In this document: piece after piece, positions 4,785-61,012 of the stretch
How the letters are laid out: the number at the start of each line of letters is the position of its first letter
Position numbering within the stretch: position 1 is the stretch's first letter
Origin: Parachlamydiales bacterium
GTDB taxonomy: Bacteria; Chlamydiota; Chlamydiia; Chlamydiales; Rhabdochlamydiaceae
Assembly: GCA_963705295.1 (NCBI GenBank)
Contig: OY970065.1
Span: 1,248,001 to 1,312,000, forward strand
Reading direction: 5' to 3'
DNA: 64,000 nt
Position numbers and translations under genes: made by a program
The notes under the pieces: generated by a model
The model's input: the letters and a program-made list of their open reading frames with translations, nothing else
Database searches by the model: none
What the model was told of the DNA's origin: nothing

Positions 4785-6584
4785 CTAAAATGTCTTGTAA
4801 CTGAGCGTCTGAAAATCCAGGGATCGGTCTCTGGAACGATCGGGTGGGGAGACCATCCAGGACTGTGCGAAACAGTAGACGAGCAAACTGGTGGCGTGAT
4901 GTTGAGAAGGAGGGAGTTCTCTCAAGTGTTTTTCTAATTGAAAGGTATGGAGATGATCGACGACTTTCTGATAAAAAGCCTGCAGCAATCTTAAATTCTC
5001 GGGTGTGAGATTTTTTCGATGGCCTTCTAGAGTGAGTTGATGGACAGCTTGAAATAAAATTCCCCGGTTTTGACGCAGATAGTCGAGAGAAGCTTCTTTT
5101 GTTTGCCTTAGGAGGAGACGCGTTAACTTTTGGATGAGTTCTCGTATTCGAGTGTTAATAAATTCGATCGATTCAGCAAGTGGAGCTTCTTCTTTTTGAT
5201 GAACTAAATCTAGATATTCGGTCATCTCAAAACGGTTTAATTTTTGAGCACAACTTTCATAAACAACAGCCCATTTCTTGAGGGAAGAATCGGTTAAGAA
5301 AAGAACGAGAGATTCTCTAAATTCTAATAGATATAAATTCAAATTGGAGCAAAATGCGAACAGTTTTCTGCACTCAGTCGGCCCAAACTTTTTTCGATCG
5401 AGACAGGCTTGCATCTTTTCTTTTGTGGTATTTTCATCGAGTTCCTGTAAAAATTCGAGGGTCTTATCGAATTCGGACCTGACGTGGATTAAAAACTCAA
5501 CTTCAGAAGTTAGGACAGCTTGCCTCTCAACAGCGGGAAGTGTCTTTGGAATTATACTGCGCCCGCTCAAGTTGTGTGAATTTGGACTGGCTGCGACTTT
5601 GCCAAATCGATCCTCCTCCTCGGCCTTCACTACTCGGGAATGGTCCTCGTCGTTCGGACCGCAAGCTTCGATTTGGCTTTGTCTCGCAGAGTCCAAATTC
5701 ACACAACTTGAGCGGGCGCAGTATAACAAATCTTCACCAAAACAATGTAAAAGAAGCCCCACTCCTCGAGGTTGACCAGCAGGAATGGAATAAAGCTGGC
5801 TCTGTAGTCCAACTTCATGGAGTTTTGTCACACATCTCTCATAGAAATAAGACAGCGATCTCTTATTTTCTTCATTGAGAATTTGTCCATTTCCTTTTAG
5901 TGCTAGAAGGTAGAGAGCATGGTAAAGGAAGCTTGGCTTTTCATTGATGAGCGCGCTGCAACCGTCTTTATCGGTTTTAAGCAAACTGCGGAGAAACTCG
6001 ATGATCTCGGGTGCCTTTTCATTGATAAAGTCACTGCGCGGTTCATCTTTATCAGATTTCTGAACACATGCCGATCTCAATCTCTGCCATCTTTGCACGG
6101 TTTCTGCAGGGACAATTTGGGTTAAAACATCGGATTGTTCTCTGAGGAATAATTCGAAGGTTGAAAGGAACATGCAGTGGTCACGGAGCTTTTCTTCGGA
6201 TCCTTGGAGAATTAATTGCTCAAAAAAATCGATCGATTGATCGACTTCCTTACGGATGTCGAGGTGGACCTGCTTTTCCAGAGGAGGAGGAGGCGTGATT
6301 TTTTTTTGTAGAAAGATGGCGGCATAGATTTCTTCAGAGCGTAGGGTCCAAAGTCTAGCAAAAATACCTGGAATTAAAAAAATAAGTGCAAGGGAAAAAT
6401 AGGTCGCAGTTTTAAGAGCTGACGCCTGCATCGGAGAAACCACTTTCCTGGCGCCGGTAGGGGCATGGACAACGATCGATCCTTTGAAATGTTGCAAATA
6501 AGAAAAGCAGTAATTTGCAAAATCATTCGCTCTATTAGGGACATTGAGAATAACTCGTGTAGTATAAAGCTTAGAATCTAACAT
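4785..6584 (-). CDS. hypothetical helical protein with N-terminal hydrophobic segment and two internal repeats; carries a 57 aa in-frame palindromic-element insert
   Basis: Repeats such as DFINEK...LYHALYLLALKG...LLLHCF vs EFINTR...LFQAVHQLTLEG...LLVYCF; insert at 5555-5725. Confidence 0.7.
   Translation of the reverse strand: MLDSKLYTTRVILNVPNRANDFANYCFSYLQHFKGSIVVHAPTGARKVVSPMQASALKTATYFSLALIFLIPGIFARLWTLRSEEIYAAIFLQKKITPPPPLEKQVHLDIRKEVDQSIDFFEQLILQGSEEKLRDHCMFLSTFELFLREQSDVLTQIVPAETVQRWQRLRSACVQKSDKDEPRSDFINEKAPEIIEFLRSLLKTDKDGCSALINEKPSFLYHALYLLALKGNGQILNEENKRSLSYFYERCVTKLHEVGLQSQLYSIPAGQPRGVGLLLHCFGEDLLYCARSSCVNLDSARQSQIEACGPNDEDHSRVVKAEEEDRFGKVAASPNSHNLSGRSIIPKTLPAVERQAVLTSEVEFLIHVRSEFDKTLEFLQELDENTTKEKMQACLDRKKFGPTECRKLFAFCSNLNLYLLEFRESLVLFLTDSSLKKWAVVYESCAQKLNRFEMTEYLDLVHQKEEAPLAESIEFINTRIRELIQKLTRLLLRQTKEASLDYLRQNRGILFQAVHQLTLEGHRKNLTPENLRLLQAFYQKVVDHLHTFQLEKHLRELPPSQHHATSLLVYCFAQSWMVSPPDRSRDRSLDFQTLSYKTF
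5555..5723. mobile_element. TA-flanked palindromic MITE-like element (type C), in-frame in 4785-6584
   Basis: Perfect 37 bp inverted repeat ttatactgcgcccgctcaagttgtgtgaatttggact (5552-5588 / 5690-5726); TA at 5553-54 and 5724-25; interior shares sequence with both type A and type B elements. Confidence 0.85.
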
Positions 6585-6631
6585 CGTATTAATAGTTTAA
6601 AAAGAATTAGAATTTTTTTATATGTCAAATA

Positions 6632-7465
6632 ATGATTCACATCCAAAGGATAGGCGGCCTCGGTGACGTGATTTGGGCGGAGCCCGTTGTCCGTCATTTC
6701 ATTGAAAGGGGCGAGGTTGTCCAGATGATCACCGATTTCTCAGAAATTTTTTTAAATTATCCGAGTCGTAACCTCATTATGAATGAAAAATTTCCGATGA
6801 ATCATTTGAGGAAGATCCACGCATCTGTAGAAAGGGGGGCTAGGTGGATTAATCTGGATGGGGCATATGAAAACCGTCCTACAAGACATATTTTGGAAGC
6901 TTACCGGCTAGAGGCTGGAATAAATATGGAACTAGGGCCTCCACAGATTCATCTGACGGTGGAGGAAAAGAAGCCTCTTTTTGACAATTATGTGGTTTTG
7001 CACATCGAAAAAAATCCGCTGAGTTTTCGGAATGTTCATGGGGTTGATTGGGGCAAAGTGATTCGATATTTGAAAGAAAGAAAAATGGAGGTGATTCAGA
7101 TTTCTGAAAAGGGTGATTGTATTCACGGCCGGTGGGTGAAAACCAAAACGATCCGGGAGATGATGTCGCTCATTTACAATGCGAAATGCTTTATTGGATT
7201 GGACTCAGGCCCGAGCCATATCGCTGCAGCGCTCGGTGTTCCTGCCATTTTGTTTTTCGGCTCGGTCAACCCCCAGCTCCGTCATGCGAAGGCTTTTAAA
7301 GGGGTTTTCCTGCAAGCCCCTTGCGAATATGCTCATTGTTACCACGAGGTTGTCGGTGACTCGGGCCAGCCGTGCAAATGGGGAAATGGGATTCCTAAGT
7401 GCACCATCCAAACATCAGATCGGGTGATTTCGGCGCTTGAAACGTTTATAAATCCACTTGGGTAG
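6632..7465 (+). CDS. glycosyltransferase family 9 (heptosyltransferase-like)
   Basis: GGLGDVIW and IGLDSGPSHIAAALGVPAILFFG motifs. Confidence 0.85.
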   Translation: MIHIQRIGGLGDVIWAEPVVRHFIERGEVVQMITDFSEIFLNYPSRNLIMNEKFPMNHLRKIHASVERGARWINLDGAYENRPTRHILEAYRLEAGINMELGPPQIHLTVEEKKPLFDNYVVLHIEKNPLSFRNVHGVDWGKVIRYLKERKMEVIQISEKGDCIHGRWVKTKTIREMMSLIYNAKCFIGLDSGPSHIAAALGVPAILFFGSVNPQLRHAKAFKGVFLQAPCEYAHCYHEVVGDSGQPCKWGNGIPKCTIQTSDRVISALETFINPLG

Positions 7466-8290
7466 ACGGATGAGATAACCGAGAGGGATGACTAAGTTGA
7501 GCCAGAGAAGATGGAGCGGGGAGAACCATTTGGCTGTATAGGTTTTAAAGCTTTTTGCCATTTGGAAATATTTCCACGTATTCGAGCGGAGGGCAAAGCT
7601 TCTCCCGAAGTGATCGACGCAGGCGACGAGGGGGACATAGTAGGTTTTATAGCCGAGCCTTTTCACTTCTTTGTAGAGATCGACGTCTTCAAAATAGATG
7701 AAGTAAGCCGGATCGAAGGCAAAGCCGAGTTTTTCAAGGATTTCTCTTCGGGTAAGCAAAAATGCACCGCGTGCGTGATCGATTTCTTGTATTTGGTTGT
7801 CATCAAAGTTAGGGTAAAGGATGTGGGTGTAATAGAGAACTTCATTGAACCTCTTTTGATTGAGAAAGAAAGGGAGAAATGGGAGAGGTGTGGGAAAACG
7901 GATCGGCTTTAGAGGAAGAGACGGTTCATAGTCGTGGTTTAAAAGTTTGCAGCCAGCAATCCCGACATCGGAATGCTTGTCCATCCAATCGATCATATCA
8001 TCGAGTCGTCCTTCATGGATCTGCAGATCGGGATTGAGAAAAAGAATATACCGGCCTTTAGCTTCTTTGAAGGCTTGGTTATTCGCCGCTGCAAAACCGA
8101 CATTTTTTTTATTTTTAATGAGCCGGACGTAGCTCGCATAGCTTTCAACGAGCTCAACTGTCCCATCGGTCGATCCATTATCGACAATCAGGTGCTCATA
8201 CTCACACAATGTATGGCCAACAACCGACATGATGCAGCTGTCGATATACTTAACGGATTGATAGGTAACCGTAATGATGCTAAGCTCCAC
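7415..8290 (-). CDS. glycosyltransferase family 2
   Basis: SIITVTY, IVDNGSTDGT, NVGFAAANN, LFLNPD, YFEDVDL. Confidence 0.9.
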   Translation of the reverse strand: MELSIITVTYQSVKYIDSCIMSVVGHTLCEYEHLIVDNGSTDGTVELVESYASYVRLIKNKKNVGFAAANNQAFKEAKGRYILFLNPDLQIHEGRLDDMIDWMDKHSDVGIAGCKLLNHDYEPSLPLKPIRFPTPLPFLPFFLNQKRFNEVLYYTHILYPNFDDNQIQEIDHARGAFLLTRREILEKLGFAFDPAYFIYFEDVDLYKEVKRLGYKTYYVPLVACVDHFGRSFALRSNTWKYFQMAKSFKTYTAKWFSPLHLLWLNLVIPLGYLIRLPKWIYKRFKRRNHPI

Positions 8291-60544: not shown

Positions 60545-60712
60545 TTAACCCGACACGCAAAAAAGAGACAACCTGCTGGCTGCACCCCTGACAGATCGAT
60601 CCTCCTTCTCGGCCTAGCCTTCGGCTATGATCCTCGTCGGTCGGACCGCTGACGCTTCGATCTGACAGGGGTTCGCTTACGCATCTTGTCTCTTTTTTGC
60701 GTGTCGGGTTAA
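60545..60712. mobile_element. TA-flanked palindromic element (type A)
   Basis: Perfect 27 bp arms ttaacccgacacgcaaaaaagagacaa; TA at 60543-44 and 60713-14. Confidence 0.92.
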
Positions 60713-60855
60713 TACGACGCAAAACGTCTCGTAATGAGGATGAGTTCATTGCAATTTTAAAGAGACGCCATGCGCATCTTATGCAAATTCGTCCTGAAAT
60801 GAGACCAGGAGAATTTAAAACGGTGCAAAACCGAGCAGGATCAACTGTCTTTGTA

Positions 60856-61012
60856 TTAACCCGAGAGGTCAAAAGGTGACAAGATGCGCTGCGAGGCAAA
60901 GCCAGATTGATTCTCGCGAGGATTACATTCTTGAATACGAAGGATTCCGAGCGAGAATCGATATGGCGAAGCCGCAGCAAGCAGGTTGTCACCTTTTGAT
61001 CTCTCGGGTTAA
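60856..61012. mobile_element. TA-flanked palindromic element (type B)
   Basis: Arms ttaacccgagaggtcaaaaggtgacaa / ttgtcaccttttgatctctcgggttaa; TA at 60854-55 and 61013-14. Confidence 0.92.

What the first reader, a model, noticed from the sequence alone, without database searches (positions are those of the whole stretch)
5555..61012. Family of TA-flanked, protein-invading palindromic elements (8 copies in 64 kb)
Seen: elements at 5555-5723, 9194-9373, 15667-15826, 18244-18401, 30169-30331, 35336-35492, 60545-60712 and 60856-61012, each with roughly 27-37 bp inverted arms and TA on both sides. Six lie inside coding sequence. Five have net length (element + TA) divisible by 3 (171, 162, 165, 159, 159). 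No transposase is in the window. Known: TA duplication is typical of IS630/Tc1-mariner MITEs, and Rickettsia palindromic elements (RPEs) insert in-frame in proteins. Inference: an RPE-like system in this lineage that both adds peptide segments and inactivates genes.
Basis: partly seen in the sequence, partly recalled or inferred. Interest (0 to 1): 0.82.

Follow-up and report, generated by a model that had tools for sequence, protein, structure and literature searches.

The report
Protein-invading IS630 hairpin mini-transposons
These are small jumping-DNA hairpins of an environmental chlamydia that carry the ends of IS630 insertion sequences, sometimes add a 53-57-residue peptide inside proteins, and share a folded centre that elsewhere travels with the ends of a different transposon family.

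Summary
All eight elements are real, at the stated coordinates, with TA on both sides. The genome holds 79 full copies of four end types. They are non-autonomous IS630 elements (MITEs). Full-length IS630 elements with type-A ends occur in four related chlamydial genomes (one with an intact DDE frame), and IS630 ends matching E5 occur in a same-genus genome. No such transposase was found in this genome. Homologue junctions show a duplicated TA. 'Protein-invading' is only partly right: of the eight, only E1 and E6 add a peptide, and genome-wide 9 of 79 do. The elements are depleted from coding DNA (14 of 79 against 63% of TA sites), so in-frame copies look like survivors. The E1 peptide does recur in unrelated proteins (RecD, SctQ, TamA/BamA-like, MtaB), as Rickettsia RPEs do, but it matches no RPE model. 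The surprise is a ~100-bp hairpin core found in none of five insertion sequences tested. It sits about 34 bp inside the ends whether these are IS630 (TA) or IS4 (9-bp duplication). The scan noted shared cores under different ends before, on other DNA; here the ends are matched to full-length elements.

The parts
5555..5723 (.). E1, type C element (169 bp, TA both sides). Shared core at 5590-5689. Read in frame on the minus strand as residues 288-344 of a 599-aa ORF (4785-6584).
4785..6584 (-). Host ORF of E1, no family. All 12 non-self hits cover 9-13% of the query, centred on the insert.
9194..9373 (.). E2, type A (core variant beta), intergenic between divergent genes, 7 bp before an ATG
15667..15826 (.). 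E3, type A (core variant alpha), at the extreme 3' end of F-box/WD40 ORF 14182-15678; supplies the last 3 codons and the stop
18244..18401 (.). E4, type A (alpha), net 160 bp; may interrupt a small unassigned ORF (unverified)
28417..28451 (+). Solo type-A left arm without core, TA before it; a shorter arm remnant lies at 30138-30155
30169..30331 (.). E5, type B (5 copies in the genome), intergenic between convergent genes; ends match an IS630 of genome G008 at 25-28 of 32 bases; different core
35336..35492 (.). E6, type A (alpha), read in frame as residues 154-206 of ORF 34876-37068 (+)
34876..37068 (+). Host ORF of E6 (730 aa), no family; its two non-self hits are proteins with the same insert
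59862..61461 (+). Broken Fic-family gene (pieces about 58-76% identical to ~487-aa Fic proteins), interrupted by E7 and E8, with about 87 codons missing beside E7
60545..60712 (.). E7, type A (beta), in the Fic gene, bordering the deletion
60856..61012 (.). E8, type A (alpha), in the Fic gene; TA counted twice against 40 of 40 homologues; reads into a stop

Best explanation
The elements are MITEs moved in trans by IS630-family DDE transposases that recognise their outer ~27-37 bp, insert them at TA (preferring T-TA-A) and duplicate the TA. SHOWN: ends match full-length IS630 elements; TA duplication; recent spread; depletion from genes; in-frame survivors. INFERRED: the transposase came and went, or lies outside this assembly. 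Insertion is blind to reading frame, and selection leaves copies in intergenic DNA, at stop codons, in dispensable genes, or in the one frame that is read through, giving RPE-like peptide inserts. The interior is not a deletion product of the IS. It is an older ~100-bp hairpin core that has been fitted more than once with ends of different ISs (IS630 and IS4 shown). Most likely one IS left end recombined beside the core, and template switching across the hairpin copied it to the other side (inferred).
For: IS630 with type-A ends in G333, G231, G270 and G288 (1118-1121 bp; ends 20-24 of 27 to this genome's arms for the first three; G288 ends read). The five more distant IS630 loci with ends called score 10-15 of 27, and 5000 random TA-following 27-mers reach at most 18. 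G231 has an open 346-codon frame with D, D, E. E5-type ends border an IS630 in G008. TA duplication: junction offset -2 in 40 of 40 Fic homologues for E8 and in a paralogue for genome copy 455251; flanks collinear in a long frame for 14 of 79 under a 2-bp duplication, against 4 and 3 under 1 or 0 bp. 37 of 77 type A/B copies have a neighbour at 97% or more. The core profile hits 11 of 11 G071 elements (E 1e-9 to 1e-15) and 0 of 5 ISs. Those elements have 9-bp duplications (perfect in 8 of 11) and the ends of an IS4-family element. 129 of 144 type-A arms have the IS left-end word, not the right-end word. Arms vary in concert. One copy is symmetric over 71 bp.
Against: No IS630 gene or remnant was found in this 94.7%-complete single contig, although copies are near-identical. 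None of the 4 genomes with the type-A IS630 matched the strict two-arm pattern, so IS and MITE were not seen together for type A. No partner was found for E1's ends or for the 3-bp-duplication family. The single complete IS4 copy shows no 9-bp duplication (it lies near a contig end). No sister strain was available, so no nucleotide-level empty site exists for any of the eight. The boundary finder looked for TA pairs, so '69 of 79 with TA both sides' is partly circular. The template-switch step is untested.
Confidence: 0.82

Rival explanations
1. The core is the true mobile unit and is recognised as a folded strand by a structure-reading enzyme (HUH/RAYT type or unknown); the IS-like ends are passengers.
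For: The core is better conserved than the ends across families and lies 35-37 nt from the outer TA in 108 of 115 oriented elements. One strand folds more stably in 34 of 39 representatives. The central hairpin shows two-sided changes. No DDE gene of four families tested is in the genome. A Y1 fragment exists.
Against: The duplication length follows the ends, not the core: TA with IS630 ends, 9 bp with IS4 ends. The Y1 hit is a broken 54-residue piece. The leading-strand bias is not significant (44 of 72, p=0.08). No mobile-element gene family recurs beside the elements.
Confidence: 0.08
2. The elements are kept because they serve the host, as a coding module or an RNA regulator at gene ends, and are adapted for in-frame insertion.
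For: 9 of 79 copies are read through. 7 of 14 collinear intragenic copies read through against 9.3% expected per random insertion. Inserts occur in conserved genes elsewhere. 12 of 79 sit on stop codons against 4.1% of TA sites.
Against: Open frames number 27 observed against 26.6 in shuffles. Orientation next to gene 3' ends is 19 against 19. The 3n excess is not significant without the read-through copies (29 of 70, p=0.10). The copies are absent from orthologous sites in G016 where these could be tested. All of this fits survivor bias. No expression data were available.
Confidence: 0.07
3. The core is shared only by descent and drift: one old MITE lineage whose ends were replaced by ordinary recombination with resident ISs, with no role for the core. 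This differs from the best explanation only in how much the core matters.
For: Arms and core variants mix freely within this genome. E5-type arms carry another core in G433 and G005, and the E5 core carries other arms in G016, G216 and G268.
Against: It does not explain the fixed 34-nt spacing, two left ends in most copies, or retention of the core's paired segments across several families.
Confidence: 0.35

Closest known systems
IS630-dependent MITEs: RUP of Streptococcus pneumoniae (IS630-Spn1 ends; PMC2229807, parts 1-2 of 3 read) and ERIC (listed as MITEEc1_IS630 in a passage of bioRxiv 10.1101/2024.01.18.576219)
   Same: Short hairpin-forming elements, TA at both termini, ends like an IS630, no transposase of their own; MITEs inserted into transposase genes (L287, L289).
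   Different: No sequence match to E. coli genomes or to 12 K-12 ERIC loci. RUP is closed in all six frames; here some frames are open. The interior is shared with IS4-ended elements.
Rickettsia palindromic elements (RPE-1 to 10; seen only through review passages in PMC10969869, PMC2229807 and PMC3733652; Ogata 2002 is not held)
   Same: About 150-bp palindromes inserted in frame in unrelated proteins, including conserved ones, adding a recognisable peptide.
   Different: No RPE model hit. Longer (157-207 bp for most). The in-frame share is 9 of 79, against nearly half reported for R. conorii. Here the duplication and the transposase family are identified; PMC2229807 lists the RPE duplication as '?'.
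REP/REPIN-RAYT and TIRtron systems (PMC3733652, passages)
   Same: Palindromic repeats near gene ends, some intragenic.
   Different: TA or 9-bp duplication, DDE-type ends, no intact Y1 transposase in the genome.
QMITE1/2 of Coxiella burnetii (PMC5896051, passages)
   Same: MITEs of an intracellular bacterium that create or extend ORFs; QMITE1 is described as a conserved core with variable ends.
   Different: No DUF1658 or other Pfam hit on the peptides; QMITE2 has longer, variable direct repeats.

Membership tests
IS630-family MITE | Terminal inverted repeats match a full-length IS630 | tested here: met
   Type A (6 of the 8). Type B (E5): where the IS is split over contig ends.
IS630-family MITE | Terminal match for E1 (type C ends) | tested here: inconclusive
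   No matching IS among 30 + 6 IS630 loci examined
IS630-family MITE | TA target duplicated | tested here: met
   definition from PMC2170065 passages
IS630-family MITE | No transposase of its own; multicopy | tested here: met
   79 full copies of 116-205 bp
IS630-family MITE | Interior derived from the IS by deletion (usual model) | tested here: not met
   Core profile hits 0 of 4 IS630 and 0 of 1 IS4
IS630-family MITE | Moved by the transposase in trans | not testable with these tools
   Needs an assay; the enzyme was not found in this genome
IS630-family MITE | Already catalogued (ISfinder) | not testable with these tools
   ISfinder is not available; no Rfam hit, no meaningful plasmid hit
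Rickettsia palindromic elements (RPE) | In-frame insertion in unrelated proteins | tested here: met
Rickettsia palindromic elements (RPE) | Peptide similarity to RPE families | tested here: not met
   No RPE model among NCBIfam or Pfam hits; that NCBIfam holds RPE models is recalled
Rickettsia palindromic elements (RPE) | DNA similarity to RPE sequences | not tested
   No Rickettsia record could be fetched
ERIC | Sequence similarity to the 127-bp ERIC | tested here: not met
   (12 K-12 loci); only a short GCTGCG word is seen by eye
REPIN / RAYT | Intact Y1 (RAYT) gene flanked by the repeats | tested here: not met
   One broken Y1 fragment, not next to any element

The most novel reading that the evidence does not exclude
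The ~100-bp core is a selfish, transposase-agnostic module. It captures one end of whichever insertion sequence is resident, copies it to its other side by hairpin template switching, holds the ends at a fixed spacing that aids their joining, and so becomes a new MITE family each time. RPE-type protein inserts would be a by-product of such modules, and their movers can be named from their ends.
Probability: 0.3. Interest if true: 0.85.

Novelty: new variant of a known kind. Interest (0 to 1): 0.6.

Why it matters
How protein-invading palindromes move had no experimental support as of the 2007 review read here (PMC2229807). This case gives an RPE-like family in a second intracellular lineage together with a cognate, apparently intact IS630 transposase, so mobilisation and frame bias can be tested in a laboratory strain. 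It also departs from the usual account of MITE birth by internal deletion: one interior is carried by the ends of two transposase families with different target duplications. In practice, the 53-57-residue inserts have no Pfam or NCBIfam model and will mislead annotation of chlamydial proteins.

Tried and rejected
A first guess at the organism from genome size (paper search) was wrong; the genus holds 19 genomes of 1.0-2.3 Mb. No sequencing run was listed for window 5001-15000, so no reads were laid; this is no evidence either way. Nucleotide paralogue search gave no clean empty site; five further paralogue pairs diverged at the junction. Orthologues in G016 gave a cross-junction match inside a gene for only 1 of 79. 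Two collection scans (29 + 47 loci) found no arm-gene-arm element, but the pattern included MITE-only bases, so it could not have found the IS. The neighbour-gene screen found no recurring mobiliser. A recalled idea that E5's ends were IS5-like was dropped when they matched IS630. A solo end near an IS630 in G142 was not its terminus. Viral scans were empty. The core pattern was one base too long and missed the home genome; its 11 hits were not used. The end finder picked an artefact for L320; the ends were read directly. The type D element (genome 924052) and type B do not hit the core profile, so they are not counted as sharing it. No structure prediction was run.
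Full report
Observation. All eight elements lie exactly where stated, with TA on both sides and inverted arms. The window is C1:1248001-1312000 of a 2.13-Mb single-contig genome, 94.7% complete, with a clean two-replichore GC skew. Of 29 GTDB records matching the type-A arm, 27 are titled Chlamydiae, Rhabdochlamydia(ceae), Parachlamydiales, Acheromyda, Verrucomicrobia or uncultured MAGs. The two others have no partner arm or core. I infer an environmental member of the Chlamydiales.

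Census. BLAST and a de novo inverted-repeat scan gave 79 full elements: 72 type A, 5 type B (E5), 1 type C (E1) and 1 type D, plus about a dozen fragments. I dropped three palindromes of other families before counting. 69 of 79 have TA on both sides, but the boundary finder sought TA, so this count is partly circular. T precedes the TA in 104 of 158 symmetrised sites against 32% in the background. 37 of 77 A/B copies have a neighbour at 97% or more, so spread is recent. E8 matches 8 of 40 relatives, a strict two-arm pattern 6 of 400 other genomes of the order, and E1 10 of 149.

TA is a duplication. No sister strain was available and nucleotide paralogues gave nothing. Three indirect tests agree. 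The flanks of E8 abut in 40 of 40 Fic homologues with the TA counted twice. Genome copy 455251 shows the same against a paralogue and a G016 homologue. Flanks fall in one long reading frame for 14 of 79 elements under a 2-bp duplication, against 4 and 3 under 1 or 0 bp. E7 borders a loss of about 87 codons in all 40 homologues, as expected from an adjacent deletion or from recombination between two copies (inference).

Coding context. 63% of 3000 random TA sites lie deep in long frames, but only 14 of 79 elements do (p=3e-16). 12 of 79 sit on stop codons against 4.1%. Seven of the 14 are read through, against 9.3% expected (p=6e-5 on 7 of 13 after dropping one stop-codon case). Two more sit in frame near N-termini, giving 9 of 79. 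The 3n excess (38 of 79, p=0.005) falls to 29 of 70 (p=0.10) without these, and lengths are not independent. Open frames are no commoner than in shuffles (27 against 26.6 of 234). In the window, E1 and E6 add peptides, E7 and E8 break a Fic gene, E3 caps a gene, E4 is uncertain, and E2 and E5 are intergenic.

The peptide. The E1 host protein found 12 other proteins, matching around the insert. They include RecD, SctQ, a TamA/BamA-like protein, a CT351-like barrel, MtaB, a GH3 hydrolase and a multicopper oxidase. The 57-residue peptide hit 91 of 1.84 billion cluster representatives, itself included. Many are short ORFs that may be false calls over intergenic copies. Of 29 scanned, 15 had a Pfam family, among them DapB, RNase P protein and an anticodon-binding domain. 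Of 18 hosts tested, 5 could be bridged in G016: gaps of 0, 0, +3, -6 and -57 nt, so four look like clean inserts. No RPE or other model matches the peptides. Expression is untested.

The mover. This genome has no DDE_3, DDE_Tnp_1, DUF4096 or rve match and one broken Y1 fragment. DDE_3 occurs in 49 of 128 other genomes of the family. Among 30 loci examined, L276 (G333) is a 1120-bp TA-flanked IS630 whose ends are the type-A arm; its first acidic position reads Ala. Searching with it found 8 of 401 genomes. The three closest others also have type-A ends: G231 (1118 bp, open frame with D, D, E), G270 and G288 (both with stops). More distant IS630s do not (10-15 of 27, against 20-24; random maximum 18 of 27 in 5000). 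E5-type ends border an IS630 in G008, and type D ends one in G012. No partner was found for E1. No remnant of the type-A transposase is in this genome, and IS and MITE were not seen together for type A. These two points count against a simple picture. IS630 transposases bind their ~24-bp inverted repeats and duplicate TA (PMC2170065, passages).

The core. Inside the arms is a ~100-bp imperfect hairpin starting 35-37 nt from the outer TA in 108 of 115 oriented elements (15 of 130 could not be oriented). A profile built from type-A cores alone hits E1, 9 of 9 other C-like elements, 4 of 4 elements of family f43 and 11 of 11 elements of G071. It hits none of 5 ISs, 12 ERIC loci, or types B and D. 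The G071 elements have 9-bp duplications (perfect in 8 of 11). Their ends are those of a 1201-bp IS4-family element in G110 and of a fragment in G124; the complete copy itself shows no duplication. The f43 elements show a 3-bp TWA duplication in 3 of 5 pairs, with no partner found. Conversely, E5-type arms carry another core in G433 and G005, and the E5 core carries other arms elsewhere. Arms change in concert: at variable positions 9-14, 18, 20 and 22 they pair in 0.79-1.0 of 58 arm pairs, against 0.29-0.55 expected. 129 of 144 arms are of the IS left-end type. 34 of 42 consensus pairs have two-sided changes, though relatedness inflates this. One strand folds better in 34 of 39 representatives. 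Orientation shows no significant link to replication or to neighbouring genes.

Mechanism. The ends decide enzyme and footprint (shown by sequence, not by assay). Insertion is blind and selection sorts the outcome (strongly supported). The core is an older module re-fitted with IS ends, probably by capture of one left end and template-switch copying (inferred). Whether the core does anything is open.

Relation to what is known. This is a new IS630-dependent MITE family that works like RPEs at the protein level but is not shown to be one. Eight paper searches on the topic listed no description of such elements in chlamydiae or of one core under IS630 and IS4 ends. The library lacks most subscription papers, Ogata 2002 was not held, ISfinder was not available, and no supplements were read. 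Passages were read from PMC10969869, PMC3184786, PMC3733652, PMC5896051, PMC2170065, PMC4335510 and bioRxiv 10.1101/2024.01.18.576219, and parts 1-2 of 3 of PMC2229807. Earlier notes of this scan report shared cores under different ends in other genomes, one of them chlamydial, and the type D copy in this genome. I had reached the core reading; these notes are unchecked and are not counted as support.

Verdict. Real, mostly explained, with one unusual and testable feature. New variant of a known kind; interest 0.6.

Noticed in passing
G000:C1:1224670-1225225, 498451-498939, 1327184-1327484 (L217-L219): All three GxxExxY (PF13366) genes of the genome lie inside or beside palindromes of other repeat families that also occur solo in many copies, a RAYT-like arrangement for a PD-(D/E)XK-type protein.
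   Followed up: no
G000:C1:399164-399656: Nested element of 493 bp: outer TA-flanked palindrome, inner palindrome, a type-A copy and a piece of another repeat. Its outer ends resemble Rickettsia RPE ends as recalled, not tested.
   Followed up: partly
G000:C1:763259-763543, 1245639-1245983, 1649244-1649552: A further TA-flanked family of 285-345 bp with a GC-rich subterminal hairpin, carrying other palindromes inside.
   Followed up: no
G000:C1:686814-686971: Type-A copy symmetrised over 71 bp, a likely template-switch product.
   Followed up: partly
L287 (G428) and L289 (G012): MITEs with type-D ends inserted into IS630 transposase genes; in L289 the IS has the same ends.
   Followed up: partly
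G000:C1:1453194-1455107 and 1899827-1901722: An arylsulfotransferase-family gene carries two type-A copies (one at the N-terminus, one in frame); an oxidoreductase-like gene carries one in frame in its N-terminal hydrophobic segment.
   Followed up: partly
window 28417-28451 and 30138-30155: Two same-orientation left-arm remnants flank the AAA-ATPase gene 28680-30119; 6 elements of the genome lie in or beside genes of one such ATPase family.
   Followed up: no
window 46291-55715: Two tandem ~1565-aa autotransporters, 86% alike over 2.9 kb; an RHS protein at 19125-24503 and several F-box/WD40, ankyrin and LRR genes lie nearby.
   Followed up: no
G000:C1:1920323-1948159: A 9278-codon open frame on the minus strand.
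   Followed up: no
G000:C1:1984144-1984973 and 1313914-1314362: Near-identical tandem repeats with periods of about 146 and 142 bp.
   Followed up: no
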